Shown: positions 15,967-30,533, counted from the stretch's first letter. The stretch: DNA of 64,000 bases from Sumerlaeia bacterium (GCA_040219255.1 JAVJSW010000035.1:1-64000); one strand, 5' to 3'. Translations and numbers: made by a program. The notes: generated from the letters alone by a model not told the origin.

Positions 15967-15971
15967 TTTTT

Positions 15972-16141
15972 ACCACGGAGACGCGGAGGCACGGAGAATT
16001 GGGATGAGGTCAAATTGGCGAAGACATGCCTTGCTGAAGTTCCTAAACTTTTAGGAACTTCAGCGAAATATTCGAGAGCTTCTCAAGAAGCTTCTCCCCT
16101 TCTTCGCCAACCACGTCTTCGTGTCTCCGTGCCTCCGTGGT
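15972..16141 (+). mobile_element. Gene-less inverted-repeat element, family B (MITE/REPIN-like)
   Basis: Left arm ACCACGGAGACGCGGAGGCACGGAGA (25/26 identical to 25546-25571); right arm TCTTCGTGTCTCCGTGCCTCCGTGGT; internal perfect palindrome at 16033-16064. Confidence 0.8.
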
Positions 16142-16223
16142 GAACCCTCCAGAAACCCTTGGCTTTCCGGCCACGCACCGTTAACCTTCGAACTTTCCGC
16201 CATCATTCCTCCCGGAGGCGCCC

Positions 16224-16781: not shown

Positions 16782-16791
16782 CGGCCACGGC

Positions 16792-17307
16792 GTGGGTACC
16801 GAGCATAAGTTTCTGAGCGATTACAACGCCGCCCGGGCCTGGGCAGGCGACCGCCGGGCCGGCGGCCAGCGCGTCGTTTTCACCAATGGCGTGTTCGATT
16901 TGCTGCACAATGGGCATCTGGATTCGTTGCGGCGGGCGCGGGCCGAGGGCGATTGGCTGATTGTGGCGCTGAACAGCGACGCGGCGGTGAAGCGCCTGAA
17001 GGGCGAGGGCCGGCCGGTTCTCGCGGAGGGGCAGCGGGCGCGGCTGCTGGGGGCGCTGGATTGCGTGGACGCGGTGGTGCTGTTTCACGAGGACACGCCT
17101 CGGGAAATCATCGAAGCGGTGGAGCCGGATGTGCTGGTCAAAGGCGGGCATTATACGATCCCGGAAATCGTGGGGCACGATTTTGTGCTTGAACGCGGGG
17201 GCCGAGTGCTGAGTCTTCCCCTGCTGCCGGGCTATTCGACGACGGATTTGGTGGCGCGGATCAAAGAACGCTTCGCCCCGGAATCCGTTGCCCCGCCCAC
17301 GGCCTGA
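16792..17307 (+). CDS. rfaE2: D-glycero-beta-D-manno-heptose 1-phosphate adenylyltransferase (RfaE domain II)
   Basis: VFTNGVFDLLHNGH, LNSD..V.RLKG..RP, F.EDTP, LVKGG.Y, YSTT. Confidence 0.92.
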   Translation: MGTEHKFLSDYNAARAWAGDRRAGGQRVVFTNGVFDLLHNGHLDSLRRARAEGDWLIVALNSDAAVKRLKGEGRPVLAEGQRARLLGALDCVDAVVLFHEDTPREIIEAVEPDVLVKGGHYTIPEIVGHDFVLERGGRVLSLPLLPGYSTTDLVARIKERFAPESVAPPTA

Positions 17308-17347
17308 CGCATTAGATTTTCCAAAACCTCTGGAAGGACCCCCTGCC

Positions 17348-17575
17348 ATGGCAGACGACGCCTCGATGGCTTTCCCCGATATTCAAAAGGACGCCCAGGT
17401 TCACCATCCGACTTTCGGGATGGGCAAGGTGCTGCAACGCACGGGCAAGGATGAGAAGACGGCCAAGGCCATCATCAAGTTCCGCGAGGAGGGCGAGAAG
17501 AAACTGGCTCTGCAGTTCGCCGACCTGACGGTGGACAAGGTGGACGAGGACGAGGCGGAAGGCGCGGCGCAGTAA
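17348..17575 (+). CDS. Small stand-alone PcrA/UvrD C-terminal Tudor-like protein
   Basis: VHHPTFGMGKV...IKF...GEKKL...FA.L matches the UvrD/PcrA CTD pattern; stop overlaps the gatC start. Confidence 0.7.
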   Translation: MADDASMAFPDIQKDAQVHHPTFGMGKVLQRTGKDEKTAKAIIKFREEGEKKLALQFADLTVDKVDEDEAEGAAQ

Positions 17576-17880
17576 TGGAGAAACTCGATCGCGTCGAAGC
17601 CATCGACAAAGACCGCGTGGCCCACGTGGCACTGCTGTCGCGCCTGGCGCTGACGGACGAGGAAATCGAGCAGTTCGCCGGTGAGTTGACAAAAGTCGTC
17701 GGTCACCTGAACAAGCTGGCCGAACTCGACCTCGACGATGTGCCGATGACGAGCCACGCCATCCCCATGAGCAACGTCTTCCGCCCCGACGCCGCCCGCC
17801 CCGGGCTGCCAACCGCGGAAGCTCTGGCCAACGCGCCGGAGCAAGAGGACGACTGTTTCAAGGTTCCTCAGATTATTTAG
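17575..17880 (+). CDS. gatC: Glu/Asp-tRNA amidotransferase subunit C
   Basis: VAHVALLSRLAL, L.ELD...V, NVFR.D, LANAP....FKVP.II. Confidence 0.93.
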   Translation: MEKLDRVEAIDKDRVAHVALLSRLALTDEEIEQFAGELTKVVGHLNKLAELDLDDVPMTSHAIPMSNVFRPDAARPGLPTAEALANAPEQEDDCFKVPQII

Positions 17881-17908
17881 TTCGGTACAAAATCCGAAGG
17901 AATTCCCC

Positions 17909-19387
17909 ATGTCTTTGAAAACCGCACGCGATCTGGCCGCTGCTTTGGCGGCGGGCGAGACAACGTCCCGCGAGGTGACGGAGAAGTATCTCGCCGCCAT
18001 CGAATCGCTCAATCCGACGTTGAACGCGTACATCACCACGCTGGCCGACGAGGCTTTGGCGGCGGCGGAGGCCAGCGATGGGCGCCGCAAGACGGGGCAG
18101 ACGCTGTCGCCCCTGGACGGTGTGCCGATCGCTATCAAGGACAACATCTGCACCCGGGGCGTGAAGACGACCTGCGCGAGCAAAATGCTCGAGGAGTTCC
18201 GCCCGCCCTATAACGCCACGGTGGTGACGAAGCTCGAAGCCTCTGGCCTCATCAACCTCGGCAAGGTCAACATGGACGAGTTCGCGATGGGCTCCTCGAC
18301 CGAGCACAGCCACGTGGGGCCTTCGCGGAATCCGTGGAATCCGAATTTTGTGCCGGGCGGTTCGTCCGGTGGTTCGGCGGTTGCGGTGGCAGCCGGCATG
18401 GCGCCCTGGAGCCTGGGCAGCGACACCGGCGGTTCGATCCGCCAGCCCGCTTCGTTCTGCGGCATCGTCGGGCTCAAGCCCACCTATGGCCGGGTAAGCC
18501 GCTACGGCCTGGTGGCATTCGCGTCGTCGCTGGATCAGATTGGGCCGCTGAGCGTGGATGTGCAGGACGCGGCGCTGCTGCTGGAAGTGATCGCCGGCCA
18601 CGACGACCGCGATTCCACCAGCAGTTCGCAGCCCACGGAGAAATACACCGAAGCGCTGGTGGGCGCCAAGGCGCTGGACGGTCTGAAGGTTGCCCGGCCG
18701 GTGGAGTTTTTCGAGACCGAAGGCATCGACCCGGAAGTCTCCGCCGCGTGCGAGAAGGCGCTGCAGACCATGAAGGACGCCGGGGCGACCATCGTGGACG
18801 TGAAAATGCCCCACGCCGAGGAGTACTCCGTTTCGACCTACTACGTTCTGGCGACGGCGGAAGCGTCGTCGAACCTGGCGCGGTACGATGGCGCGCACTA
18901 CGGCTATCGGGAACCGGGGACGCAGAACATCGTCGAAATGTTCTCGAAAACGCGGGCCGCGGGTTTTGGCGCCGAGGTCAAGCGCCGCATCATGCTCGGC
19001 ACGTTCGTGCTCTCGGCGGAGACCTTCGATGCCTACTACCGCCGCGCGGCGAAGGCCCGGACGCTGATCCAGAAGGATTACGCGGAGGCTTTGGAGAAGG
19101 CGGACGTGATTTTCGCGCCAACGGCTCCGAGCCCGGCCTTCAAGTTCGGCGATAAGACGGCCGATCCGCTGACGATGTATCTGTCGGATATCTTCACGCT
19201 GTCGCTGAATCTGGCGGGGTACTGCGGTATTTCGCTGCCGATTGGGCATTCGGAGGGGGGGCTGCCGATCGGAGCTCAGCTCTTTGGCGGCGCGTTCCAG
19301 GAATCGAAATTGCTGGCCTCCGCCCATGGGCTGGAAGAAGCCCTCGGCATCGCCAACCGGCGTGCCGCCACCCTCGCCGCCGTCTGA
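17909..19387 (+). CDS. gatA: Glu/Asp-tRNA amidotransferase subunit A
   Basis: KDNI, NMDEFAMGSSTE, GGSSGGSA, GSDTGGSIRQPA, SSNLARYDG, EVKRRIMLG. Confidence 0.97.
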   Translation: MSLKTARDLAAALAAGETTSREVTEKYLAAIESLNPTLNAYITTLADEALAAAEASDGRRKTGQTLSPLDGVPIAIKDNICTRGVKTTCASKMLEEFRPPYNATVVTKLEASGLINLGKVNMDEFAMGSSTEHSHVGPSRNPWNPNFVPGGSSGGSAVAVAAGMAPWSLGSDTGGSIRQPASFCGIVGLKPTYGRVSRYGLVAFASSLDQIGPLSVDVQDAALLLEVIAGHDDRDSTSSSQPTEKYTEALVGAKALDGLKVARPVEFFETEGIDPEVSAACEKALQTMKDAGATIVDVKMPHAEEYSVSTYYVLATAEASSNLARYDGAHYGYREPGTQNIVEMFSKTRAAGFGAEVKRRIMLGTFVLSAETFDAYYRRAAKARTLIQKDYAEALEKADVIFAPTAPSPAFKFGDKTADPLTMYLSDIFTLSLNLAGYCGISLPIGHSEGGLPIGAQLFGGAFQESKLLASAHGLEEALGIANRRAATLAAV

Positions 19388-19396
19388 TTTCGCTTC

Positions 19397-20212
19397 GTGG
19401 CTATTTACTATTACGTCAATCTGAATTGTCCGCCGCGTGAGCAACTCGGCGAGGAACCGCTCTTCGAAGGGGTTCGTGCCGCCGTGATGGCGCGGGAAAT
19501 CCGCGCGTCCTTTGTGGCCAAGTACGGCCCCGATGTGAAGCCGGAGCAGATGCGCTACCGCCAGCGCTTCACCACGCCCACCGGCGAAGAAGAATCCCGA
19601 GAACGGACCGTCGCCGACTTGCAGGACGACGCCGCCCTTCTCGAACCCCTCGCTCCTCATTGCAGCGGCTGTCTCGCCAGTATCACCGGCCACGCCTACG
19701 GCTGCTTCGGTTCGGTGTCGCTGCCGATTTCCGAGAAGGCCGAGCGGTGGCTGCTCTCGCGCATTCCCAAGCCGGGAACCAAGGCCGGAGAGTTCTATCG
19801 CGAAACCGCCATGGAGCGCTATGGCGGGCATGAAAACCTCGCCAACTGGCGCAAGGCGACGTTCCTCGAGTCGCCCAAACGCCTCGCCCGTCACGACATG
19901 GGCGATGGCGATCCGGTGACCAGCGATCAGTTGCTCCACGCCATGTTCCTGGTGGGCGACATCGCGCCCGCCCACGCCCTGGCGCTGCTGCTGTTCACCC
20001 AGGCCATCGTGGCCGACGACAACTCGACGGACAAGGCGCTGGAGGTCATCGAGCAGGTCGAGGCCACCGGTTCCAACACCGGCGTCTCCCAACTCGGTTT
20101 CTCTCTCATACCGGAAGAGGACGACGACCGTTCGATCCTGGACTTGAAGCTGTTCCTGGCGGGATGCTTCCGGGCGTTTTCCTTCGAGGTTCCGCTGGCG
20201 GTCTGGCTGTGA
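19397..20212 (+). CDS. Hypothetical protein with Cys cluster (C..CxxC..C)
   Basis: 271-aa ORF 9 nt after gatA with host-like codon usage; no family recognised. Confidence 0.7.
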   Translation: MAIYYYVNLNCPPREQLGEEPLFEGVRAAVMAREIRASFVAKYGPDVKPEQMRYRQRFTTPTGEEESRERTVADLQDDAALLEPLAPHCSGCLASITGHAYGCFGSVSLPISEKAERWLLSRIPKPGTKAGEFYRETAMERYGGHENLANWRKATFLESPKRLARHDMGDGDPVTSDQLLHAMFLVGDIAPAHALALLLFTQAIVADDNSTDKALEVIEQVEATGSNTGVSQLGFSLIPEEDDDRSILDLKLFLAGCFRAFSFEVPLAVWL

Positions 20213-20261
20213 TTGATGAGTGCGGATCGGCGGGGGGGCGTTCCTGGTCCTTAAGGAAATC

Positions 20262-20520
20262 ACCACAGAGTCACAGAGGGCACAGAGAGTGTTGTATTCA
20301 GAGGATTTATCAGGAGCATGGGGAAGGGGTCGTGGTGTTTGGGGGGATCGCGAGGCGACCACGGATTTTTTTTGTGTCCCCAGATGTGACGCAGGAATCC
20401 GAGAGGGTTGAACGACATCTGTGAATTGCGGGAAGAAAGGCTTCTCAACCGCAGGTGGCGTGGTTTGTGTTCGCCTTTTGCAATCTCTGTGAAAACTCCG
20501 TCCTCTGAGTGCTCTGTGGT
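20262..20520 (+). mobile_element. Gene-less inverted-repeat element, family C
   Basis: Left ACCACAGAGTCACAGAGGGCACAGAGA (3x CACAGAG); right TCTCTGTG...CTCTGAGTGCTCTGTGGT; AT-richer interior. Confidence 0.7.
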
Positions 20521-20582
20521 TGAATGCTCGATTCGGAGCGGTCCTGACGATATCGGGCTTGCAAATAGTTTCGTCATAGCTC

Positions 20583-20610
20583 TTGAGTCGTGCGCTGATT
20601 GTGGTACCAT
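20583..20610 (+). promoter_or_regulatory. Possible sigma-70 promoter for the aminotransferase operon
   Basis: TTGAGT-16 nt-TACCAT with a TG extended -10. Confidence 0.35.
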
Positions 20611-20658
20611 GCTAATGAGAACGAATACCCGACTCGTTCGCCGACTTTGTTGGTGGGA

Positions 20659-22323
20659 GTGACGGCCTTGCCCTACGATTTCCATTACGATCCCAAATTG
20701 AGTGCGATCACCCACGGGGCCCGGCTCCGCGCGCCTCTCTATCCCGACCCGGAAATGCCGATGGAGGATGTCGCTCCGCATGAGCAGGGCATTCCCGGTT
20801 CGCCGCGCAACGCGCTGTTCTATCAGGATCTGGTGCCGCTGCCGATGGCTTCGCACGGGGATGGGATCTATATTTACGACGAGCAGGGGCGCCGCTACCT
20901 GGACGGGTGCTCGGGGGCGATCTGCGCGAACCTGGGCCATGGCAACAAGCGGATCGCCGCCGTCGCGGCGGAGCAGGCGGGCAAAATCGCTTTCGCCTAT
21001 CGCACCCAGTTCGAGAGCCGGCCAGCGAACGAACTCGCCGACATGCTGGTGCGTCTGGCGCCTCCCGGGCTGAACCGCGTGTTCTTCGTCAACTCCGGTT
21101 CGGAATCGGTGGAGGCGGCGATCAAGCTGGCGCGCCAGTATTGGTGGTCGGTTGGTAAGCAAGGCAAGCACATGATCATCGCGCGGCGCCCGTCCTATCA
21201 CGGGGCGACGCTCGGGGCCTTGTCCGCCACGGCCTATGCGCCGCTGAACATTCCCTACCGGCCGATGTCGCTGAACTTCCCGAAGATCAGCGCGCCGTAT
21301 TGCTATCACTGTCCGCTGAACAAGGAATACCCGAGCTGCGAGATGGCCTGCGCGCGGGAACTGGAGCGCGCCATCCGCGTCCACGGGCCGGACAACATCG
21401 CGGCCTTTATCACCGAGCCCATTGGCGGTGCCAGCACCGGCGGTGCGGTGCCCCCGCCGGAGTGGTTCCCGATGGTGGCGGAGATCTGTAAGGAGTATAA
21501 CATCCTGCTGATCGTGGACGACGTGCTGACTGGCTGCGGGCGCACGGGTACGTTCTATGGTTTCGAGCATTGGGGCGTGACGCCGGACATTGTCGCACTG
21601 AGCAAGGGCCTCGGCGCGGGCTACACGCCGATCGGCGCCACGGTCGCCACCGACACCGTGGTTCAGCCGGTGATGGACAGCGGCGGCTTCATGCACGGCC
21701 ACACCTACGCGGGCAATCCGCTCTCGACAGCCATCGCGCGCGAGGTGTTGAAGATCACGCTGGAAGAAGGCCTGGTGGAGAACGCCGGCGCGATGGGCGT
21801 GGTGCTGCACGAGGGGCTGCACGAATTGATGGCGAAGTACCCGATCATCGGCGACGTGCGGGGCCGGGGTTTGCTGGCGGGCATTGAATTCGTCCGCGAC
21901 CGGGCGAAGCGCGAGCCGTTCCCGGCGCATTGGAACGTGGGCCGGGAAATCACACAGATCGCCCGCGAGCGCGGCCTGCTGATTTATCCGCGCCGTTCGC
22001 TGTACGGTCTTTCCGGCGACCACGTCTTGCTTGCCCCGCCGCTGATTATCAAGGAGGCAGGGATCGAGGAGATGCTGATGCTGTTCGAGCAATCGCTCGA
22101 GGAGTTGATGCCGCTCCTGGACAAGCACTACGAGCAGGACATCGCCGCTGAGGAAGCCTATCGCAACGAGAAGCGCTACGAGCTGGAGGACGAAATCCCC
22201 GCCTACGCGCTCGGCGATATTGAAGGCGTCCAAAGCGACCCGGAAGCCAACGTGACCTGGCAGATGCGCGAGGGCGAAACCGCCCATCCGGAAGATTTGG
22301 TGGAAGACCCGGAGATCCTGTAA
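20659..22323 (+). CDS. Class III PLP aminotransferase (YodT-like); start uncertain (20659-20761)
   Basis: YLDGCSGA...LGH, SGSESVE.A.KLARQY, SYHG.T, EPIGG, DDVLTG.GRTG, SKGLG.GY.P, GHTY.GNP. Confidence 0.92.
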   Translation: MTALPYDFHYDPKLSAITHGARLRAPLYPDPEMPMEDVAPHEQGIPGSPRNALFYQDLVPLPMASHGDGIYIYDEQGRRYLDGCSGAICANLGHGNKRIAAVAAEQAGKIAFAYRTQFESRPANELADMLVRLAPPGLNRVFFVNSGSESVEAAIKLARQYWWSVGKQGKHMIIARRPSYHGATLGALSATAYAPLNIPYRPMSLNFPKISAPYCYHCPLNKEYPSCEMACARELERAIRVHGPDNIAAFITEPIGGASTGGAVPPPEWFPMVAEICKEYNILLIVDDVLTGCGRTGTFYGFEHWGVTPDIVALSKGLGAGYTPIGATVATDTVVQPVMDSGGFMHGHTYAGNPLSTAIAREVLKITLEEGLVENAGAMGVVLHEGLHELMAKYPIIGDVRGRGLLAGIEFVRDRAKREPFPAHWNVGREITQIARERGLLIYPRRSLYGLSGDHVLLAPPLIIKEAGIEEMLMLFEQSLEELMPLLDKHYEQDIAAEEAYRNEKRYELEDEIPAYALGDIEGVQSDPEANVTWQMREGETAHPEDLVEDPEIL

Positions 22324-22350
22324 CCCCAACTGTTAGAAGCCCCGGCACCT

Positions 22351-23049
22351 ATGTCGAAAGTCAGCACCGTCTCCGGCGCCCTGCGCGCCGCCGTCAAGAG
22401 CGGCGACACGATCCTGGTGGGGGGGTTCGGCCGGGGCGGCGTGCCCTTTTCCTGCACGGAATTCCTGGCCGATCACCCCGATGAATTCCGCGATCTGACC
22501 CTCGTGAAGAACGACGCCAACGAACCCGGCCTGGGCATCGGCGCCATGTTCCGTAATCCGGGCCAGGTGAAGAAGCTGATTTCGACCCACATCGGTCTGA
22601 ACCCGGAATTCATCGGCCAGATGAACGCCAAGGAAATCGCCTGCGAGCTGATTCCCCAGGGGATTTTCGCCGAGAAGCTGCGTGCGGGAGGCGCCGGAAT
22701 TCCAGCCTTCCTGCACGACATCGGCATGGGCACGATCGTGGCCGAGGGCAAGCGGACGGTGGATTTCGACGGCCGGCCATGGATTCTGGAGAGCGCCTTG
22801 CGTGGCGATGTGGGGCTGTTGTGCGCCGACATGGCGGACGAGAAAGGCAACGCGTGGTGGCGCGGCACGAACCGCAACATGAACGTGGTAATGGGCATGG
22901 CCGCGCGGACGGTGATCGTGGAAGCCAAGCAGATCGTGCCGGTCGGCACCCTGCGCCCCGAAGACGTGCACCTGCCCGGCGTCTGCGTCACCGCCGTGGT
23001 GCCGGCGGGACCGAGGCGGCACTTACAGAAATTGGCCGCCGATGAATAG
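22351..23049 (+). CDS. CoA-transferase subunit A (YodS/AtoD-like)
   Basis: ILVGGFG..G.P, STHIGLNP, PQG..AEKLRAGGAGIP, AD..GN. Confidence 0.92.
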   Translation: MSKVSTVSGALRAAVKSGDTILVGGFGRGGVPFSCTEFLADHPDEFRDLTLVKNDANEPGLGIGAMFRNPGQVKKLISTHIGLNPEFIGQMNAKEIACELIPQGIFAEKLRAGGAGIPAFLHDIGMGTIVAEGKRTVDFDGRPWILESALRGDVGLLCADMADEKGNAWWRGTNRNMNVVMGMAARTVIVEAKQIVPVGTLRPEDVHLPGVCVTAVVPAGPRRHLQKLAADE

Positions 23050-23123
23050 GATCAATAGGATCAAGCGGCGCCAACGACCTTCGACAAGAAGACATCCCAT
23101 TCATCCCATCCATCTGCGGCTAA
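23032..23123 (+). mobile_element. Gene-less 92-bp inverted-repeat element, family A
   Basis: Left TTGGCCGCCGATGAATAGGATCAATAGGAT; right ATCCCATTCATCCCATCCATCTGCGGCTAA; same termini as 23787-24225. Confidence 0.82.
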
Positions 23124-23128
23124 CTCAA

Positions 23129-23800
23129 ATGACTCCTGAAGAACGTCTCCTGATCGAACGCGCGGCCCGGGAAATCGAGCCCGGTATGGTGGTGAATCTG
23201 GGCATTGGCCTGCCGACGAAAATCCCCGCCGTGTTGCCCGCCGGGTTCGATGTCACGTTTCACAGCGAGAATGGCTTCGCGGGGCTGGGGCCGCCGCTGG
23301 AGGGCGGGACGCCGGACAATGACGTGATCGATGCGGGAGGCCGCGCGGTGACGCTGGAACCGGGCGCGGCGTGTTTTGACTCCGTCACTAGTTTCTCCCT
23401 GGTGCGGGGCGGCAAGGTCGATCTGGCCATTCTCGGTGCCTTCGAAGTCAGCGTGGCCGGCGACCTGGCCAACTGGATGATCCCCGGCAAACTGACCCCC
23501 GGCATGGGCGGCGGGATGGAACTGGCCCAGAAAGCCCGCCGGGTTCTGGTGGTGAGCCGCCACCTGGACAAGCACGGGCGGGGCAAACTGGTGGACGTCT
23601 GCTCGCTGCCCCTGACGGCGGCGGGTTGCGTCAGCACGCTGGTGACGGAGCGGGCGGTGTTTCGCCGGGAGAAGGGCGGCCGCATGCGGCTGGTGAGCGT
23701 GGCGCCGGGGCTGAGCGTGGAAGACGCGCGGGAGGGCATGCCGGAGGGCCTGGAGGCCGAGGGGGCGTTGGAGGCGTGGGAGGGGGTTGGCCGCAGATGA
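23129..23800 (+). CDS. CoA-transferase subunit B (YodR/AtoA-like)
   Basis: VNLGIGLPT, SENG (catalytic Glu), GDLANW.IPG...GMGG.M.L, C.LPLT. Confidence 0.93.
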   Translation: MTPEERLLIERAAREIEPGMVVNLGIGLPTKIPAVLPAGFDVTFHSENGFAGLGPPLEGGTPDNDVIDAGGRAVTLEPGAACFDSVTSFSLVRGGKVDLAILGAFEVSVAGDLANWMIPGKLTPGMGGGMELAQKARRVLVVSRHLDKHGRGKLVDVCSLPLTAAGCVSTLVTERAVFRREKGGRMRLVSVAPGLSVEDAREGMPEGLEAEGALEAWEGVGRR

Positions 23801-24225
23801 ATGCCGATGAATACAGATTGAAAATCGATGAGCTGACCTATCGAATCAATGGCTGCATCTATGAGGTGGCGAATGTCTTGGGTCATGGGTTCTTGGAAAA
23901 GGTCTATGAGAATGCGCTTGCCTGTGAACTCAGGAATCAGAAGTTTAGGGTAGAGCAGCAGAAACCTCTGCCCGTGCTTTACAAAGGAAATATGGTTGGC
24001 GATTATTTTGCTGACCTGCTTGTCGAAAATACTGTCTTGATCGAGCTCAAGTCAATTACCACCAGTTTCCAACCTGTACATCTGGCGCAATGCATGAATT
24101 ACTTGCGCGCAACAAACCTGCACGTCTGCCTGCTCGTCAATTTTGGCAAACCAAAGGTTGAAATCAAACGTGTCGTGCGAAATCTCTAACTCCTAATCCT
24201 ATTCATCCCATTCATCTGCGGCTAA
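23787..24225 (+). mobile_element. GxxExxY cassette enclosed by family-A inverted repeats
   Basis: Left TTGGCCGCAGATGAATGCCGATGAATACAGATT; right AATCCTATTCATCCCATTCATCTGCGGCTAA; the enclosed gene is AT-richer than its flanks. Confidence 0.8.
23797..24189 (+). CDS. GxxExxY protein (PD-(D/E)xK nuclease superfamily)
   Basis: LGHGFLEKVYENAL, ADLLVE..V.IELK, Q..NYL.AT......NFG. Confidence 0.95.
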   Translation: MNADEYRLKIDELTYRINGCIYEVANVLGHGFLEKVYENALACELRNQKFRVEQQKPLPVLYKGNMVGDYFADLLVENTVLIELKSITTSFQPVHLAQCMNYLRATNLHVCLLVNFGKPKVEIKRVVRNL

Positions 24226-24231
24226 AAAATC

Positions 24232-25521
24232 ATGAATCACCTCCCCCCCGATTTCCCCCAAGCCCTCTCCGCCCGCCGTGATTGGGCCATCTCGAACCTG
24301 GCCCGGCTGACCGAGGAACCGACGCTTCTCGGCAATGAAGCCTCCGGCCAGGACGTCGTCGCTGAACTCTACGAAGCCGTCGGGCTCGATGTCGAGATGA
24401 TCGACGTGGACCCGGATGTGTTGGCGTCGAAGCCGGGGTGGTCGCCGGTGGATTGGTCGTATGAGGGGCGCCCTTGTGTGGCTGGGACGCATGAGCCGGG
24501 CGGTTCGCCGGAGGGGCGGTCGCTGGTGTTCAACAGCCACATTGACGTGGTCAGTCCGGAGCCGGTGCAGCTCTGGACGACGCATCCGTTCGAGGCGGAA
24601 ATCTTCGACGGCGAGGACGGCCGGCCGTGGATGCGCGGGCGCGGCGCGGGCGACATGAAGGCGGGGACGCTGGCGTATCTGTGGGCGCTGGGGGCGTTGC
24701 GCGATGCGGGTCTGGAGCCGGCCAGCAAGGTGATCTGTCAATCGCCCATCGAGGAAGAATGCACGGGCAATGGGGCGTTGGCGCTCTGCGAGGCCGGATA
24801 CCTGGGCGACGCGTGCCTGATCCCCGAGCCCTTCGCGGAGACCATCCTCACCGCCCAGGTGGGCGTGCTCTGGTTCGATGTGACGGTTCTGGGCCGCACG
24901 ACGCACGTGCTGGGCGCCGGGCGGGGTGTGAACGCGATCGAGAAAACGTTCCCGATTATCACGGCGCTGCGGGCCCTGGAGGAAGAAATCAACGCTTCGA
25001 TTCCGGCGCTCTACGAAGGCATCGAGCACCCGATCAACCTGAACGTCGGCATCATCGACGGCGGCGATTGGGGCAGTACGGTGGCGGGCGAGTGCACGAC
25101 GCGTTTCCGCCTGGGCCTGTTCCCCGGCGAGAAAATCCCGGACCTGAAGCGCCGCGTCGAGCAGCGCGTGGCCGAGGTGGCCGCGGCGGATCCATGGCTG
25201 AAGAACTTCCCGCCGACGGTGAACTACGTCGGCTTTCACGCGGAGGGCTGCACCTTCGACGGCGCGAGCGATTTCGGCCGCGACCTCGCAGCGATCCATC
25301 GCGATCTGCGCGGTTCGGCGGCGGCGGAACTGCGCTGCACGGCGACGACCGACGTGCGGTTTTTTAACCTGTACTATGATGTGCCGGCGACGTGCTATGG
25401 CCCCATCGCGAAGGACATCCACGGCGTGGACGAGTGCGTGAGCCTGGACAGCATGAGCCGCGTGGCAGAGGTGATGGCGCACCTGATCGCGAGGTGGTGC
25501 GGGGTTCGGAAGCGGGGGTGA
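24232..25521 (+). CDS. ArgE/DapE-family M20 deacylase (YodQ-like)
   Basis: FNSHIDVV, GRGAGDMKAG, EEECTGNG, IPEP, TTD.R, YGP....IH..DE. Confidence 0.93.
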   Translation: MNHLPPDFPQALSARRDWAISNLARLTEEPTLLGNEASGQDVVAELYEAVGLDVEMIDVDPDVLASKPGWSPVDWSYEGRPCVAGTHEPGGSPEGRSLVFNSHIDVVSPEPVQLWTTHPFEAEIFDGEDGRPWMRGRGAGDMKAGTLAYLWALGALRDAGLEPASKVICQSPIEEECTGNGALALCEAGYLGDACLIPEPFAETILTAQVGVLWFDVTVLGRTTHVLGAGRGVNAIEKTFPIITALRALEEEINASIPALYEGIEHPINLNVGIIDGGDWGSTVAGECTTRFRLGLFPGEKIPDLKRRVEQRVAEVAAADPWLKNFPPTVNYVGFHAEGCTFDGASDFGRDLAAIHRDLRGSAAAELRCTATTDVRFFNLYYDVPATCYGPIAKDIHGVDECVSLDSMSRVAEVMAHLIARWCGVRKRG

Positions 25522-25545
25522 TGGGGTAGGGGATTTTCTCAATTA

Positions 25546-25973
25546 ACCACGGAGACACGGAGGCACGGAGATGTTATTGGCCGAGGATGTAACCAATCAA
25601 GTCATTGGAGCTGCGATTGAGGTCCATCGCGCTTTGGGCCCGGGCTTGCTTGAGTCGATATACGAGGAGTGCTTGAGCCATGAACTCAAGTTGCGGGGGC
25701 TCGGTTTTCAGCGCCAGGTACCCTTGCCGATCCGCTACAAAGATTTAGAGCTTCCAGATTCCTACCGCATGGACCTTGTCGTCGAAAACCTGGTAGTTAT
25801 CGAACTTAAATCGGTGATCAAGCTTGAACCAATTCACAAGGCGCAGCTCCTGACATACTTAAAGTTGTCGCGCTTGCCTGTTGGGCTGCTACTTAACTTC
25901 AATACACCTGTCCTAAAGGACGGCCTTGTGCGCCTCGTTCTCTAGCCTCTCCGTGCCTCCGTGTCTCCGTGGT
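25546..25973 (+). mobile_element. GxxExxY cassette enclosed by a perfect 26-bp inverted repeat (family B)
   Basis: 25546-25571 ACCACGGAGACACGGAGGCACGGAGA is the exact reverse complement of 25948-25973. Confidence 0.88.
25571..25945 (+). CDS. GxxExxY protein (PD-(D/E)xK nuclease superfamily)
   Basis: VIGAAIEVHRALGPGLLESIYEECL, RMDLVVE..V.IELKSV, AQLLTYLKL....GLLLNFN. Confidence 0.96.
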   Translation: MLLAEDVTNQVIGAAIEVHRALGPGLLESIYEECLSHELKLRGLGFQRQVPLPIRYKDLELPDSYRMDLVVENLVVIELKSVIKLEPIHKAQLLTYLKLSRLPVGLLLNFNTPVLKDGLVRLVL

Positions 25974-26020
25974 AAAAAGATATCCCCCGGGGGCGTCCAT
26001 CTCGCGGTTTCAAACTCCTT

Positions 26021-27793
26021 CTATTCCCCACCCGCCTCCATCGGCGAACCGTCGCCGGTGGTTTTGACGCGGGCTTTCAGGATGCCGAGTTCCTCGCGGA
26101 GTTTTTCGATGCGTTTGCGCTGGCCGTCGAGGCGGTCGCGTTCGGTGCGGACGAAGCGGGTGTAGGGGCCGATGGCGTCGCGGATGCGATCGACGGAGCG
26201 GTCGATTTCGCGCTCGAATTCGGACTTCAGCGCCGTGGCCACTTTGCGCCGCAGATCGCTGACCTGCTTGCGGAAGGCCTGCTTCATTTCCTTGCGTTTT
26301 TTCGGGATGATGTAGAGCCCGCCGACCGTCAGCAGCACACCCAGGGCCACGCCGGTCACGTCGAGCCACACCAGTTGGGTGGCCATGATCAGCGCCGCGC
26401 CCACACCGACGCCGCCGACCATGCCCAGCAGCGTCGTGGCGAAGGTGGTCTGGATCATGCCCGCCAGGCGGTCCGACTCCTTGTTGCGGTCGTAGGACTC
26501 GACGGTGCGCCGCGTCTTGCCAATGACATCGTCCAGGAGGCGGGCCCGTTCGCCGGCGAATTCGCGGTTGATGTTGCCGATCATGCGGTCCTGGTATCGT
26601 TGGCGGCGCTGCTCGACATGCTGCATCACGCTGGTCCACTGGCGCAGGTCCGCCGCCACGATCCAGTCCAGAATCTCGTTCACGCGGCGCTCGACTTCCG
26701 ACGCCGTGTCGGCCACCACTTCGTGCTCGAAGTTGTCGCGGATCAGCTCTTTGCTCATCAGTTCTTTGATGCGGGTGATGCGGACGTGTTCTTCGATGAA
26801 GTCGAGGCCGCGCTTTTCGAATTCGAGGAGCACGTTGTCCACCTTGGCCAGGCGGTATCCGAAATCGCGGCGCATGTCGTCGCGGTACGTGTTCAGTTGG
26901 CCGTCGATGTCTTCGATGGAGCGGATGTCGTCCTTGAGCACGGCGACGCGTTCGGTGGCGCCTTCGACGGCTTGTTCGCTGATTTGGATGCCGACGCCGA
27001 GGGGGCTGAGGAGTTTGAGGCGGATGCGTTCGCCTTGGTCCAGGGTGTCGCGGATGAAGTGCTCGAGGTCGTGAAAGCCGGACGCCTTGATGCGTTCGTC
27101 GTCCGGGCCGGCGCCGTCGAGCTTGGCCTTGAGGGCGCGCTTGGCCGACACGGGGAAGATGGGTGGCTCGGATTCGAGGGTCTGGCTGGCGCCGCTGCGC
27201 AGGAACTGAAGGACCGGTTCGCGCTCGTCCTCGTCCAGGAGATCGGCCTTGTTCATGACGACCACGACGCGTTTGCCCCACTTGCGGATGAGGTCGAGAA
27301 AGGTGCGTTCGGTTTCCGTGTAGGCCTGGACGGCGCTCGTGACAAAGAGAACGAGGTCGCTGCGGGGGACGAATTCGCGGGTGATCTTTTCGTGTTCGCG
27401 GACGATGGCGTTCGTGCCCGGAGTGTCCACGATAGCCAGCTCGCGCAGGATTTCCACGGGCGCCTGAATCGCGTCGGTGTGTTCGTCGATAGGTTCGACT
27501 TTCTCCGCGTCGCCGTAGCGCAGGATGCCGACGCGCTGGGTGGTGGGAGTGGCGCCTTCTTTCAGGAGCCGCTTGCCAACGAGAGCGTTGATAAAGGTGG
27601 ACTTGCCGGAATTGAACTCGCCCACGACGACCAGCAGAAAGAGGTCGTCGAGCCCGCTCAGCGCATCCGCCAAGGTTTCGCGCACGCTTTCTTCCGCTTC
27701 GAACTCCTGAAGCGTCGACTTCAAATCCGACAGGGTGGAACGGGTTTCGTTGAGGAGTGTCAGTTGATGATCGTTGAGAATGCGGGCGAGCAT
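26021..27793 (-). CDS. Bacterial dynamin-like GTPase
   Basis: GEFNSGKS (G1), PTT (G2), DTPG (G3), NKAD (G4); helical stalk and C-terminal hydrophobic paddle. Confidence 0.9.
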   Translation of the reverse strand: MLARILNDHQLTLLNETRSTLSDLKSTLQEFEAEESVRETLADALSGLDDLFLLVVVGEFNSGKSTFINALVGKRLLKEGATPTTQRVGILRYGDAEKVEPIDEHTDAIQAPVEILRELAIVDTPGTNAIVREHEKITREFVPRSDLVLFVTSAVQAYTETERTFLDLIRKWGKRVVVVMNKADLLDEDEREPVLQFLRSGASQTLESEPPIFPVSAKRALKAKLDGAGPDDERIKASGFHDLEHFIRDTLDQGERIRLKLLSPLGVGIQISEQAVEGATERVAVLKDDIRSIEDIDGQLNTYRDDMRRDFGYRLAKVDNVLLEFEKRGLDFIEEHVRITRIKELMSKELIRDNFEHEVVADTASEVERRVNEILDWIVAADLRQWTSVMQHVEQRRQRYQDRMIGNINREFAGERARLLDDVIGKTRRTVESYDRNKESDRLAGMIQTTFATTLLGMVGGVGVGAALIMATQLVWLDVTGVALGVLLTVGGLYIIPKKRKEMKQAFRKQVSDLRRKVATALKSEFEREIDRSVDRIRDAIGPYTRFVRTERDRLDGQRKRIEKLREELGILKARVKTTGDGSPMEAGGE

Positions 27794-27941
27794 AGGGGCG
27801 GTGTCTTCGGGTCGCGGGAATCGGGCACAGCCATGTAGCCCGCGAGGCGGGGAATCGGGCAACCCCCTTTTGAGTCTTCGGCTTGGGCGGAGGAGGAATC
27901 TGGAACCGCGGAGGGACGCGGATCGGCTTGGATTCGGCTCC

Positions 27942-30533
27942 TCAATACACGACAAACGAATCGCCGACCGGCTCGGGGTTCAGGAGTACCTTGGGCAGTG
28001 CCAGGTTCGTGTCGGCGCCGCCGGGGTCGCTCGCCGTTCCGCCCTCCAATCCGGTCCACCCAGCGTCCCATCCCACCGGGGAGCGCGGATCCGGATCGAG
28101 CGCGAAGCCGTAGAAATCCCGCACCTCCACGGTCAAAGGCAGCGGTTGACCCTCCGCATAGGCGCCCAGGCTGGCTTCTCGCAGCGACACCTCTCCCTCC
28201 CAGGAATCGTAGTGGTATCGCAGAGCCGTGGGCACCCCCGCCCCCCTTCTCACCCAGCCGTCCGCGGTACTGGGCGTGAGGTTGAGACTCCTTGGCGTCC
28301 CGGTCCGCTGAGGCACTTGGAGGGTTACGACCGGCTGAAACGGCACATGATCCTGCCCGGTGTAGAGCCCCGGACCGGCGGCGCCTCCGTCAGTGCGCAT
28401 CGGCTTGTTGAATTGCAGCAGAACGCGATAGCCGTCGCCGGCCAGTAACGGCCGGAACTGTTCGCTGGACAAGACCCGGGCCACCGCCGATCCCTTGGGC
28501 GCCGGAGTCCACCGCGCGGTGGCGATCAACTCCTCCGGCGACTGCAAGGTGCCGTCGCCGTTTTCGTCGCGCCAGAGCGTCATGCGCTCCAGAATCGGCG
28601 GTCCCGCCGCATAGTACATCGCCAGCAGAAGCGCCGCCCGGTTTTCCTCCACGGTCTGCGTCACCTCGTCCTCGGGCAGTACAAAGGTCGGGCCGCTGGC
28701 GGACGGATCGCGATAGCGGGGCGTGGGGTATTCGATGGTGAAACTGGGGACCTTGTAGGTATTCGCCATGAATTCGTCGGTGGCGCCGATTTCTCCGCCG
28801 GGAAACACCGGCAGATCCGCGTAGCTGCCAGCCACGCCGTTGATTTCCCGAAAGGTGAACTGCATCCGCTCGGTCAACACCGCTGTCTGGGCGTCCGAGC
28901 TTTGCGACCCATTGAACACGTTATAGATCGCCGGGATAGCCCCATGGATGTCGGCGTAGAATCGAAGCTGGCGCGTGGTGAAGAAATCCGCCGCGGCGCT
29001 GGCGAGGACCTGGGATTCGGGCTCGGAGCGCGCGAAGGGGCCGCGATAGAGGCTCGATGTCGGCGTGCCGCTCGACCCGCGCCCGAAGCCGATGTCGAAA
29101 TTCCGATTCAGGTCCACGCCGTTCAGCGCGTCGCCTTCTGTCTCCAGGACTTCGTCCACGCCGTTCATGCTCTTGCGCCGCATGCGGCCGTCGCTGTCGC
29201 CGATATAGCGCGCCGGGTTGCGTTGCGTTTGCAGGAAGCCATCCACGTTCAAGACCGGGATGAAAGCGATTTGCAGGCTATCGACCAGGTATGTGGCGAG
29301 CGTGTCGCTGCCGTAACCATCGGCCAGGAACGTCATCGTCTGCGTCACGATCTCCGGGCTCGCCCATTCCCGGGGATGGACCGTGCCGTTGACAAAAGCG
29401 CCGCCCTCGGGACCGCCGCCCGGCGCCGTGTCGTTGGCGTCGCCCAGCAGATACCCCACGATGTCGCGCCCGTCGAAGGTCTGGCCCAGCACCCACGACG
29501 TCACATGCTCGTGCTCCAGCGTCAGCGCCATGCCCTTGGCCAGCAGCCCGGCATAGCTGCGGAACCCTTCGAAGGCTTCCGTCGTATCCATCGGCACGGG
29601 CACCGGATAGCCCAACTGGTTTTCGGTGAACTCGCGAATGGAGGAGGCGCCTTTGGGGCGGACGAAGGCGGGGTCGTGGTTCGCGGCGAGTTCGGCCATG
29701 ATGAGGGCGTTGCGGTAGGCGGTCGAACCGGCCGGCTGCTCGGACAGAACCGCCACGGCCAAATCGAGGGCTTCCGCTGGCTCGCCGGTCGCGAGGGACA
29801 CGGCGTAGTTGAGGCCGATGTCTTTGCAGGAAAGGTAGCTCTGGCGCGGGTCGCTCGGAATCCGAAGCGATTCGAGTTCGCGTAGAGCGACCTCCCAAGG
29901 AACATACACCACCTCCGCATCCTTCGGCTCACTCAAATGCTTGCCGTTCGCCAAATCCTCCAACTGCCGCTGGACGTGCCAACGGCGGGAACGAAAGTCG
30001 AACGCGGGCTCCAGCAGCGGTCCGTGGCATCCGTCCACAACGACGAGGGTCTCCGGCGCCGTCTCCCAGATGGGGTCGGCGAGGAGTTCGCGGTAAGGGG
30101 CGGTCCGCGCTTCGTTCCATCCAGAATCGCGCATGTCTCTCCCAAGGGCGACGCGATGCTCGACGATCTCGAGAACTTCGCAGAGCAAGAACTCACGCCC
30201 CGCCACCGGCAACTCCTGTCGCTTGACCAACTCCAAGGTTTCCAGAAGCGAAAGGGGTCCGTCGAAAACGGTGAAGTCCTTGGCGATGAAAACACCGCTG
30301 AGCGACGCCAACCGCAGCGCCAGCAGTTCAACCTCGTCCTCGTAAAGCGCATCGCGATCTTCCTCGCGCGCGAAGCGCAAATGCTCGAACGAGGGCGGGG
30401 TGTACTCGTAGCAGAGCATTTTGTCGATGATGGGACCGAAGTCGGGCCCCACACCAGACGCTTGGCCAGCCAACCCGAGTGACACCAAGGCAGGACAGAT
30501 GAACCGAGCGATTCGGCCCCGAAATACCCTCAC
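27942..30533 (-). CDS. Secreted M14 zinc carboxypeptidase domain protein
   Basis: Signal peptide; HPREW, NVDG, RK, GVDLNRNF, YRGP...SEPE, DIH. Confidence 0.88.
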   Translation of the reverse strand: MRVFRGRIARFICPALVSLGLAGQASGVGPDFGPIIDKMLCYEYTPPSFEHLRFAREEDRDALYEDEVELLALRLASLSGVFIAKDFTVFDGPLSLLETLELVKRQELPVAGREFLLCEVLEIVEHRVALGRDMRDSGWNEARTAPYRELLADPIWETAPETLVVVDGCHGPLLEPAFDFRSRRWHVQRQLEDLANGKHLSEPKDAEVVYVPWEVALRELESLRIPSDPRQSYLSCKDIGLNYAVSLATGEPAEALDLAVAVLSEQPAGSTAYRNALIMAELAANHDPAFVRPKGASSIREFTENQLGYPVPVPMDTTEAFEGFRSYAGLLAKGMALTLEHEHVTSWVLGQTFDGRDIVGYLLGDANDTAPGGGPEGGAFVNGTVHPREWASPEIVTQTMTFLADGYGSDTLATYLVDSLQIAFIPVLNVDGFLQTQRNPARYIGDSDGRMRRKSMNGVDEVLETEGDALNGVDLNRNFDIGFGRGSSGTPTSSLYRGPFARSEPESQVLASAAADFFTTRQLRFYADIHGAIPAIYNVFNGSQSSDAQTAVLTERMQFTFREINGVAGSYADLPVFPGGEIGATDEFMANTYKVPSFTIEYPTPRYRDPSASGPTFVLPEDEVTQTVEENRAALLLAMYYAAGPPILERMTLWRDENGDGTLQSPEELIATARWTPAPKGSAVARVLSSEQFRPLLAGDGYRVLLQFNKPMRTDGGAAGPGLYTGQDHVPFQPVVTLQVPQRTGTPRSLNLTPSTADGWVRRGAGVPTALRYHYDSWEGEVSLREASLGAYAEGQPLPLTVEVRDFYGFALDPDPRSPVGWDAGWTGLEGGTASDPGGADTNLALPKVLLNPEPVGDSFVVY

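What the first reader, a model, noticed from the sequence alone, without database searches (positions are those of the whole stretch)
25546..25973. GxxExxY gene inside a perfect 26-bp inverted repeat of 8-nt units
Seen: ACCACGGAGACACGGAGGCACGGAGA (3x CACGGAGR) is exactly mirrored 2 nt after the stop codon. The last base of the left arm is the A of the ATG, and the arm contains GGAGG a few nt upstream, so the repeat also supplies a ribosome-binding site. The gene is AT-richer than the host genes. Inference: a recent or actively maintained cassette, whose arm pairing could sequester its own RBS.
Basis: partly seen in the sequence, partly recalled or inferred. Interest (0 to 1): 0.8.

Follow-up and report, generated by a model that had tools for sequence, protein, structure and literature searches.

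The report
Hairpin-armed GxxExxY nuclease gene cassette
A small nuclease gene boxed between two perfectly mirrored repeat arms was inserted behind a housekeeping gene; it belongs to a very widespread family of hairpin repeats that seems undescribed and behaves like mobile DNA.

Summary
A perfect 26-nt inverted repeat (3 x CACGGAGR; 25546-25571 / 25948-25973) encloses a 124-aa GxxExxY (TIGR04256 / PF13366, PD-(D/E)XK) gene. The arm ends on the A of the ATG and carries GGAGG 7 nt upstream.

It is not a one-off. Arms of 8-nt units, with different sequences, flank 4 of the 5 GxxExxY genes in this genome. About 60 gene-less foldbacks share the arm design. Both cassettes in the window are missing from the same operon in 11 relatives. 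In a relative, a sister cassette was duplicated with homology ending at the arms.

The exact 26-mer occurs in at least 122 places, in roughly ten phyla, and in 7 viral contigs. Arm word type follows protein clade, in two independent sets. Arm mismatches show no RNA-strand (G:U) bias and spare the words.

Best reading (about 0.55): a selfish, REPIN/RAYT-like repeat system whose enzyme is a PD-(D/E)XK nuclease. RBS sequestration is predicted by folding, but looks like a by-product.

This scan's notes hold 561 findings in at least 476 genomes matching 'GxxExxY inverted repeat'; the eight I read describe the same kind of cassette. My paper searches found no description.

The parts
25546..25571 (+). 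Left arm: ACC + 3 x CACGGAGR. It contains the SD-like GGAGG (25559-25563) and ends on the A of the ATG.
25571..25945 (+). GxxExxY gene, 124 aa, PD-(D/E)XK nuclease fold. Motif G25-L-L-E28-S-I-Y31; D68, E78 and K80 are invariant in 39 relatives.
25948..25973 (-). Right arm, the exact reverse complement of the left arm, starting 2 nt after the stop codon.
15972..16141 (.). Gene-less foldback of the same arm type (arms 15972-15997 and 16116-16141, with 1 and 3 mismatches to the 26-mer). Its 118-nt core is itself palindromic.
   Evidence: DNA fold z = -11.1
23787..24225 (+). Second GxxExxY cassette, with a different arm word (GATGAAT type). Left arm about 23787-23819, ORF 23797-24189, right arm about 24196-24225. 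Its ATG overlaps the TGA of the upstream CoA-transferase B gene (ATGA at 23797-23800).
   Evidence: arm extents beyond 17 nt were read by eye
23035..23120 (.). Gene-less foldback with GATGAAT/GGATCAAT-type arms between the two CoA-transferase subunit genes. The stop codon of the upstream gene lies inside the left arm.
   Evidence: read from the sequence
24232..25521 (+). Host gene upstream of the cassette: ArgE/DapE-family deacylase (M20 peptidase), co-oriented with the cassette. Its stop lies 24 nt before the left arm.
26021..27955 (-). Host gene downstream, convergent: dynamin-like GTPase. In relatives a different gene follows the deacylase.

Best explanation
Positions 25546-25973 are a complete copy of a hairpin-armed GxxExxY cassette, about 430 bp long, inserted behind the deacylase gene. 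Each arm is a module. It has a short terminal motif (genome consensus AAWTCAC; here TTAAC / TTTAC) followed by two to four 7-nt words of the form CRCNRAK, spaced 8-9 nt apart. The two arms are inverted copies of each other. The gene between them encodes a small PD-(D/E)XK nuclease. Shown: the architecture; its recurrence around paralogues and homologues with different words; its absence from the orthologous site in relatives; a duplication bounded by the arms in a relative; many gene-less foldbacks with the same arms; and word class tracking protein clade. Inferred: the nuclease recognises the phased words of its own arm class. It then cuts at the arms, as duplex, hairpin or cruciform, so that gene-bearing copies and the far more numerous gene-less foldbacks are copied or moved. 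This is the relation RAYT transposases have to REPINs, but with a different enzyme fold. Also inferred: the gene has no promoter of its own and is read from the upstream host gene, using the Shine-Dalgarno sequence supplied by the arm. Arm pairing in that transcript would then keep its translation low.
For: (1) Recurrence with different sequences. In this genome, 4 of 5 GxxExxY genes have flanking inverted arms of 8-nt units: CACGGAGR, GATGAATR, CGCNGAGR and GCAAAGNN. Across 37 genomes of the class, 51 of 90 genes reach an inverted-repeat score of 16 or more. The reversed control gives 0 of 90 and the complement control 3 of 90. Among metagenome relatives, 54 of 80 score 14 or more, against 0 of 80 controls.
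(2) Tight packaging: a median of 8 nt from arm to start codon, 6.5 nt from stop to arm, and a median span of 471 nt (n = 50).
(3) Insertion. None of 11 relatives' loci holding the deacylase gene has a GxxExxY match on either side of it. The junction sequences were read in 10 of them.
(4) Duplication as a unit. Two copies in G025 are 95.7% identical over 468 nt. The homology ends at the outer end of the right arm and 13 nt outside the left arm, and the flanks are unrelated.
(5) Gene-less majority. G000 has 114 three-word GAG arrays against 1 in the control and 64 inverted pairs. Of 80 loci holding the exact 26-mer, 48 have a partner arm, 3 hold a full GxxExxY gene and 4 hold fragments.
(6) Enzyme and repeat are linked. 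On a tree of 82 proteins, arm class changes 14 times, against a mean of 28.3 and a minimum of 24 in 300 shuffles. A deep split with 98% SH-aLRT support separates clades with words ending in AT from clades with words ending in AG. The independent metagenome set, all relatives of this protein, has GAG 46, AAG 4, other 4, and no AT-type among 54.
(7) Co-occurrence. The 5 of 41 genomes without a TIGR04256 match have 1, 0, 0, 0, 0 GAG arrays and at most 1 AT array. By contrast, 27 of the 36 genomes with the gene have 3 or more.
(8) Signs of decay and foreign origin. 11 of 108 matches have in-frame stops. GC is 0.51 against 0.65. The exact arm occurs in 8 stretches of 7 viral contigs.
(9) Words rather than pairing are conserved. 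The mismatch rate is 4.1% in words and 17.6% in spacers, with no G:U strand bias.
(10) The catalytic residues D68, E78 and K80 are invariant, and the model is confident (pLDDT 96).
(11) The upstream neighbour is co-oriented in 35 of 47 assignable cases, and no promoter-like site precedes the gene.
Against: There is no direct evidence that this particular copy has moved or can move. It has no close duplicate in G000. No public contig joins across an empty site. The nearest protein found is 67% identical.
No target-site duplication was seen in the one duplicated pair. A lone PD-(D/E)XK nuclease is not known to carry out transposition; that statement is from recall.
39 of 90 genes lack clear arms, including the fifth copy in this genome.
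G012 has 35 GAG arrays but only a 75-codon fragment with an in-frame stop. Nine of the 36 gene-bearing genomes have fewer than 3 arrays under my strict patterns.
The exact 26-mer flanks proteins that are only 54-64% identical to this one. So something other than the enclosed protein could be constraining the arm.
The tree test cannot separate specific recognition from simple co-inheritance of the gene and its arms.
Foldbacks show no preference among intergenic classes: 31 tandem, 15 divergent and 11 convergent, against a background of 1136, 417 and 420 (crude gene calls).
Fold search gives only a generic nuclease fold. The best hit has Z = 8.1 to an uncharacterised protein.
Confidence: 0.55

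Rival explanations
1. RNA-level element. The arms exist to form a long double-stranded RNA stem in host transcripts. RNase III would process that stem, as it does for the intervening sequences of 23S rRNA. This would excise or insulate the cassette, or stabilise or terminate neighbouring mRNAs. The nuclease gene would be a passenger.
For: The 26 arm pairs form in both the MFE and the centroid RNA fold. The cassettes sit inside operons and are co-oriented with the upstream gene in 35 of 47 cases. Three such elements are wedged into one operon in the window. The layout of an inverted stem around a small ORF resembles the Coxiella 23S IVS, described as a 428-nt selfish element with an ORF (PMC4990558, abstract seen in the listing).
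Against: Arm mismatches show no excess of sense-strand G:U-compatible changes (41 versus 44), and 63 of 148 are transversions. The spacer bases, which would have to pair, mismatch 4 times more often than the words. 15 of 57 placed foldbacks lie between divergent genes. The 23S rRNA of this genome matches all 2925 model positions in 2932 nt, so it has no insertion. No Rfam family matches.
Confidence: 0.15
2. The arms belong to something else. The phased words would be binding arrays for a host protein or for an unlinked mobilising enzyme. GxxExxY would merely be frequent cargo, for example an addiction or defence gene that rides in these foldbacks.
For: Most foldbacks carry no gene. G012 keeps 35 arrays with only a broken gene. 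The arm is identical across phyla while the enclosed proteins are only 54-64% identical. The genome also has two Y1 (IS200/RAYT-type) transposase genes.
Against: Arm class follows GxxExxY clade in two independent sets. Genomes without the gene have at most 1 array (0 of 5 reach 3). GxxExxY is the only protein-coding cargo I found between arms in G000. Neither Y1 gene has a word array within 900 nt, and one is flanked by its own, different palindrome.
Confidence: 0.2
3. The inverted repeat would be a translational control device of this gene, in which arm pairing hides the RBS and start codon until something opens the stem.
For: GGAGG and the AUG lie inside the predicted stem. In 50 cassettes the arm ends a median of 8 nt before the start codon, so the arm often supplies or abuts the ribosome-binding region.
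Against: The same arms flank cores with no gene. In 2 of the 3 full-length genes found between exact arms, the gene lies on the other strand relative to the matched arm. There is no RNA-strand bias in mismatches. The second cassette in the window has no SD-like sequence; instead it uses an ATGA overlap with the upstream gene.
Confidence: 0.1

Closest known systems
REPIN / RAYT systems (REP doublets forming hairpins and their REP-associated tyrosine transposases; Bertels and Rainey 2011, PMC3116915 and PMC3337134, abstracts read)
   Same: Short intergenic repeats are arranged as inverted doublets that fold back. There are many gene-less copies and a few copies that flank a single small enzyme gene. 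Distinct repeat groups pair with distinct enzyme lineages within one genome.
   Different: The enzyme here is a PD-(D/E)XK nuclease, not an HUH Y1 transposase. The arm is a phased array of 7-nt words, not a REP palindrome. The gene is multi-copy (5 here, up to 8 in relatives). The exact arm sequence is shared across phyla. A separate, REP/RAYT-like pair (a Y1 gene flanked by its own palindrome) coexists in this genome with a different repeat.
Intervening sequences (IVS) of bacterial 23S rRNA that carry a small ORF (for example Coxiella burnetii, PMC4990558, abstract seen in the listing)
   Same: An element of about 430 nt, bounded by an inverted stem, enclosing one small ORF, and regarded as selfish.
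   Different: This element is not in rRNA. The ORF belongs to a different family: TIGR02436 has no match in this genome. RNase III processing is untested here.
MITEs and their parent insertion sequences
   Same: Terminal inverted repeats, and gene-less short derivatives that outnumber the gene-bearing copies.
   Different: There is no DDE or other known transposase inside. No target-site duplication was seen in the one duplicated pair examined. The cores of gene-less copies are mostly unrelated to the gene and to each other.
Multicopy intergenic sequence families noted in Geobacter bemidjiensis (Aklujkar et al. 2010, PMC2996986; passages read)
   Same: That paper reports palindromic families and direct repeats of 6-42 nt occupying intergenic regions. 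The exact 26-mer of this window occurs in Geobacteraceae MAGs.
   Different: The passages I read make no link to a nuclease gene. I could not open the supplementary tables and figures that list the sequences, so I cannot say whether these are the same repeats.

Membership tests
GxxExxY protein (TIGR04256) / PDDEXK_3 (PF13366) | Score above the curated cut-off of the family models | tested here: met
   153.4 bits against a cut-off of 35; 149.3 bits against 22
GxxExxY protein (TIGR04256) / PDDEXK_3 (PF13366) | The name-giving G-x-x-E-x-x-Y motif | tested here: met
   G25-L-L-E28-S-I-Y31 in the translation. G25, E28 and Y31 are invariant in 39 sequences.
PD-(D/E)XK nuclease superfamily | Catalytic D ... 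(D/E)-x-K residues on the core beta-sheet, and the alpha-beta-beta-beta-alpha-beta fold | tested here: met
   D68, E78 and K80 are invariant. The model has pLDDT 96 with helix-helix-3 strands-helix-strand order. The top structural matches are nearly all PD-(D/E)XK nucleases: 3ijm Z = 8.1, Cas4 4ic1 Z = 7.8, BpuSI Z = 7.6, Hjc Z = 6.3. Catalytic activity itself is untested.
REPIN/RAYT system | Inverted doublets of an over-represented intergenic repeat that form hairpins | tested here: met
   64 inverted pairs in G000. 114 three-word arrays against 1 in the control. Of 60 non-overlapping foldbacks, 57 were placed between genes, 1 lay inside an ORF and 2 lay at contig ends. Folds are strong.
REPIN/RAYT system | The associated enzyme is a Y1 HUH (IS200/IS605-like) transposase flanked by the repeats | tested here: not met
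   The enclosed gene is PD-(D/E)XK. The genome's two PF01797 genes have no word arrays within 900 nt.
REPIN/RAYT system | Excision or transposition intermediates detectable in population sequencing | tested here: inconclusive
   Only three low-depth contig sets were available, and none showed a joint.
23S rRNA intervening sequence with ORF | Located inside the 23S rRNA gene | tested here: not met
   The cassette lies between protein-coding genes. The 23S gene at C56:103441-106372 has no insertion.
23S rRNA intervening sequence with ORF | The ORF belongs to the S23p / four-helix-bundle family (TIGR02436) | tested here: not met
   The ORF is TIGR04256. TIGR02436 has 0 matches in G000.
23S rRNA intervening sequence with ORF | The stem is cleaved by RNase III | not testable with these tools
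   No RNA run is listed for this DNA.
MITE / insertion sequence with terminal inverted repeats | Target-site duplication flanking the inverted repeats | tested here: not met
   The two G025 copies have unrelated bases directly outside the homologous block. This is a single pair, in a relative.

The most novel reading that the evidence does not exclude
GxxExxY nucleases and the phased-word foldback repeats together form an undescribed, cross-phylum class of mobile or self-propagating DNA. It would be a functional analogue of REPIN/RAYT built on a PD-(D/E)XK nuclease. Each nuclease clade would read its own 7-nt word (AG-ending or AT-ending). The elements would colonise intergenic spacers and operon junctions in at least ten phyla and in phages.
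Probability: 0.5. Interest if true: 0.85.

Novelty: new variant of a known kind. Interest (0 to 1): 0.7.

Why it matters
GxxExxY / PDDEXK_3 is a very large protein family whose function is listed as unknown in the superfamily survey (PMC3424549, passage read). If its members are the enzymes of a repeat system, that would give the family a function. It would also explain a class of intergenic repeats that breaks assemblies: many of the fetched stretches ran to the end of their contig close to the gene. And it would add a second, mechanistically different example of the enzyme-plus-hairpin-repeat partnership known from REPIN/RAYT. The word-to-clade link found here gives a directly testable prediction. 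The two nucleases in this one window (CACGGAG arms and GATGAAT arms) should each prefer their own arm.

Tried and rejected
- RNA evidence: no RNA holder is listed for window 24900-26600.
- Empty site or excision: the contigs of 3 DNA runs from one study showed no joint across the cassette. One contig confirmed the left junction. The other matches were arms of other loci.
- Homodimer prediction: the queue was full. Nothing was folded.
- Rfam at E <= 1 over 15500-26500: two sub-threshold chance rows only.
- PDB by sequence: nothing better than E = 0.5.
- Foldseek against PDB: nothing at E <= 0.001.
- Remnants of the gene in G000 gene-less cores: blastx found none except the two gene-bearing ones.
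- IVS idea: the 23S gene has no insertion, and the genome has no four-helix-bundle gene.
- Integron cassette idea: dropped without a test, because the arms flank both sides of the gene rather than forming one attC at the 3' end.
- Clade-specific residues: only three columns separate the two protein clades at 70% or more. They are near L26, L99 and D117 by window numbering, after correcting an offset of one. I draw nothing from them.
- Close relatives of this very cassette in metagenomes: the best is 67% identical, so recent transfer of this copy could not be traced.
- Literature: 'GxxExxY' gave 3 papers, and the one I read into mentions the domain only in passing. 'PDDEXK_3' gave 1 paper. 'PF13366' or 'TIGR04256' gave 2. 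'nonanucleotide repeats' with Geobacter, and 'nonanucleotide' with bemidjiensis, gave 0. An IVS / four-helix-bundle / inverted-repeat search gave 22 papers, and none of the 15 listed titles concerns this family.

Full report
**What is there.** One search shows the 26-mer ACCACGGAGACACGGAGGCACGGAGA at 25546-25571 and its exact reverse complement at 25948-25973.
- The arm is three CACGGAGR units behind ACC.
- Its last base is the A of the ATG of a 124-codon ORF, 25571-25945. The TAG stop is followed by 2 nt and then the right arm.
- GGAGG sits 7 nt before the ATG.
- At up to 3 mismatches the 26-mer matched 4 times in the window and 0 times in 100 shuffles.
- The ORF scores 153 bits on TIGR04256 (GxxExxY) and 149 bits on PF13366 (PDDEXK_3).
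- GC is 0.51-0.53 in the cassette and 0.62-0.69 in the flanking genes.
- A public contig independently spans the left junction.

**It is one of a family.** The window is G000:C35:1-64000, in a 5.35-Mb draft genome of 83 contigs with GC 63.6%.
- The genome has 5 GxxExxY genes. Four are flanked by inverted arms built of 8-nt units, each with a different word: CACGGAGR, GATGAATR, CGCNGAGR and GCAAAGNN.
- One of these is also in the window, at 23787-24225. Its ATG overlaps the TGA of the upstream CoA-transferase B gene.
- The window also holds two gene-less foldbacks, at 15972-16141 (same arm as the finding) and at 23035-23120.
- Genome-wide, a loose pattern finds 442 arrays of two or more words, against 125 in the reversed genome, and 64 inverted pairs.
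- The strict three-word GAG pattern finds 114 arrays, against 1 in the control.
- Outside the first word the arms share a terminal motif, AAWTCAC (T at -4 in 87%, A at -2 in 84%, C at -1 in 86% of 128 arms).
- With crude gene calls, 57 of 60 non-overlapping foldbacks were placed between genes, 1 lay inside an ORF and 2 lay at contig ends. They show no preference among tandem, convergent and divergent spacers.

**Relatives.** TIGR04256 matches 36 of 41 genomes of the same class, 108 places in all, 11 of them with in-frame stops.
- I fetched 80 regions and analysed 90 genes with alignments of 95 aa or more.
- 51 of the 90 have an ungapped inverted-repeat score of 16 or more between their two flanks. 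The reversed control gives 0 of 90 and the complement control 3 of 90.
- The arm ends a median of 8 nt before the start codon, and the other arm begins a median of 6.5 nt after the stop. The median span is 471 nt (n = 50).
- Words vary (CACGGAG, CACAGAG, CGCAGAG, CACGAAG, CGCAAAG, CACGAAT, CGCGAAT, CACAGAT, ACAAGATT and others) but share the form CRCNRAK with a period of 8-9 nt.

**Insertion and duplication.**
- In relatives the deacylase gene follows the CoA-transferase B gene within about 20-150 nt, and is itself followed at once by another conserved ORF.
- None of the 11 relatives' loci has a GxxExxY match on either side of the deacylase gene. I read the junctions in 10 of them.
- Two loci, from G004 and G009, carry a different 8-nt array (GTGAAGAG type) directly after the deacylase stop.
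- So both cassettes in the window are lineage-specific insertions. In G000 the gene that follows the deacylase in relatives is not there; its best homologue lies on another contig at 51% identity.
- In G025, two cassettes on different contigs are 95.7% identical over 468 nt. The homology stops at the outer end of the right arm and 13 nt outside the left arm. The flanks are unrelated and show no target-site duplication.

**Breadth.**
The record titles name Planctomycetota, Acidobacteriota, Geobacteraceae/Desulfuromonadaceae, Bacteroidota, Gemmatimonas, Nitrospirota, Kiritimatiellales, Verrucomicrobia, Lentisphaerae, Spirochaetes, Alteromonadaceae and Sumerlaeia.
- Of the 80 loci with flanks, 48 have a partner arm (7 or fewer mismatches) within 900 nt. 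Three hold a full GxxExxY gene, 54-64% identical to this one, and two of those three lie on the other strand relative to the matched arm. Four hold fragments.
- The 26-mer also occurs in 8 stretches of 7 viral contigs.
- Within the class, arm copies are 93-100% identical to this one, although the orthologous deacylase DNA is only 65-73% identical.

**Enzyme and repeat go together.**
- On a maximum-likelihood tree of 82 proteins, the arm class of the 52 labelled rows changes 14 times. In 300 label shuffles the mean was 28.3 and the minimum 24. Eight of the 90 genes were left out because their translation held a stop codon.
- A split with 98% SH-aLRT support separates a clade whose arms use AT-ending words from one whose arms use AG-ending words. 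The two cassettes of this window fall on opposite sides.
- An independent set of 80 metagenome relatives of this protein (54-67% identity) gave 54 with arms scoring 14 or more, against 0 of 80 controls. Their classes were GAG 46, AAG 4 and other 4, of which 3 are CAGTGAG; none was AT-type.
- Kinship inflates such tests, and co-inheritance of gene and arms would give the same pattern, so recognition is inferred and not shown.
- At the genome level, the five genomes without the gene have 1, 0, 0, 0, 0 GAG arrays and 0, 0, 0, 1, 0 AT arrays. The single AT hit is in a genome whose control count is 5. By contrast, 27 of the 36 genomes with the gene have 3 or more arrays. My hand calculation gives a one-sided Fisher p of about 0.003, uncorrected for phylogeny.

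**DNA or RNA?**
- Both RNA and DNA folds pair the arms completely. The gene-less copy folds almost end to end (z = -11.1).
- Among 148 arm mismatches in 57 cassettes, 41 would be G:U in the sense RNA, 44 would be G:U in the antisense RNA, and 63 are transversions (p = 0.83).
- Mismatches are four times more frequent in the spacer bases (66 of 375) than in the words (31 of 756).
- This argues that the word, and not Watson-Crick pairing in the mRNA, is what is kept.
- No Rfam family matches. The genome's 23S rRNA has no insertion, and there is no four-helix-bundle (TIGR02436) gene.

**The protein.**
- In an alignment of 39 sequences G23, G25, E28, Y31, Y65, D68, E78, K80, Y96, L106, N109 and F110 are invariant.
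- The AlphaFold model is confident (pLDDT 96, pTM 0.88).
- Structure searches return almost only PD-(D/E)XK nucleases, at modest scores: Foldseek's best is Cas4 SSO0001 at E = 8e-3. VIA-align gives 3ijm Z = 8.1, 4ic1 Z = 7.8, BpuSI Z = 7.6 and Hjc Z = 6.3.
- No closer functional assignment follows from these.

**Expression.**
- No sigma-70-like site precedes the gene, and no terminator-like site lies in 23600-26300.
- The upstream neighbour is co-oriented in 35 of 47 assignable cassettes, while the downstream neighbour shows no bias (28 versus 21).
- Native genes in G000 are co-oriented with a neighbour about 58% of the time, so this is a modest excess.
- The reading that the gene is expressed by read-through, with the arm supplying the SD and arm pairing damping translation, is inference.

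**A contrast inside the same genome.** G000 has two Y1 (PF01797) transposase genes.
- One is flanked by copies of a different palindrome, GAGCGCGAGCGTCCCGCTCGCA.
- Neither has a word array within 900 nt.
- The word foldbacks are therefore not the repeats of those genes.

**Literature.** Searches for GxxExxY, PDDEXK_3, PF13366 and TIGR04256 found 3, 1 and 2 papers.
- In two papers I read the matching passages. One mentions a GxxExxY domain in passing, beside a reverse transcriptase. The superfamily survey lists the function of PF13366 as unknown.
- The other papers I saw only as listed titles, and none of those titles concerns repeats.
- The REPIN/RAYT abstracts describe the closest known logic.
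- The G. bemidjiensis genome paper notes palindromic and direct-repeat intergenic families without linking them to a gene. Its supplements could not be opened.
- Notes of this scan hold 561 findings in at least 476 genomes that match the words 'GxxExxY inverted repeat'. The eight I read describe the same kind of cassette. I treated these as leads only.

**Verdict.** This is a real, clean and probably recent copy of a hairpin-armed GxxExxY cassette. The family-level evidence favours a selfish repeat system with its own nuclease (about 0.55). An RNA-processing role (0.15), arms that belong to another factor (0.2) and RBS control as the main purpose (0.1) are less likely. Mobility and nuclease specificity remain untested.

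Noticed in passing
window 22351-25521: Three repeat elements are wedged into one operon. A gene-less foldback sits between the CoA-transferase A and B genes, and the stop of A lies inside its arm. A GxxExxY cassette sits between B and the deacylase gene, with an ATGA stop/start overlap and six extra codons on B compared with relatives. The studied cassette follows the deacylase gene.
   Followed up: partly
G000 contigs C12, C14, C28, C56, C68, C69, C77 (e.g. C14:12584-12879): Eight copies of a foldback share a similar core of about 256 nt. Four more elements have a core of the same length (256-258 nt) but unrelated sequence. By my reading of the alignment the eight copies share no ORF. The conserved length without conserved sequence is unexplained.
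   Followed up: partly
G000 C56:125921-127640 and C68:109316-109603: Two Y1 (IS200/RAYT-type) transposase genes. The one on C56 is flanked by copies of the palindrome GAGCGCGAGCGTCCCGCTCGCA. A related motif, GGGCGTCCCGCCC, occurs 41 times in the genome. This looks like a separate, REP/RAYT-like system.
   Followed up: partly
L006 (G004) and L007 (G009), directly after the deacylase stop: A different 8-nt array (GTGAAGAG / GTGAAGGG units) occupies the same junction where G000 has the cassette. The stop codon of the deacylase gene lies within the first units.
   Followed up: no
window 25973-26021 and relatives' loci L002-L011: Synteny with relatives ends at the cassette. Relatives have a conserved ORF straight after the deacylase gene, while G000 has a convergent dynamin-like GTPase gene. 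The best homologue of the relatives' ORF is on contig C1 at 51% identity.
   Followed up: partly
Loci fetched: 24 of the 80 fetched stretches reached an end of their contig, often within a few hundred bases of the GxxExxY gene. This suggests the repeats break short-read assemblies.
   Followed up: no
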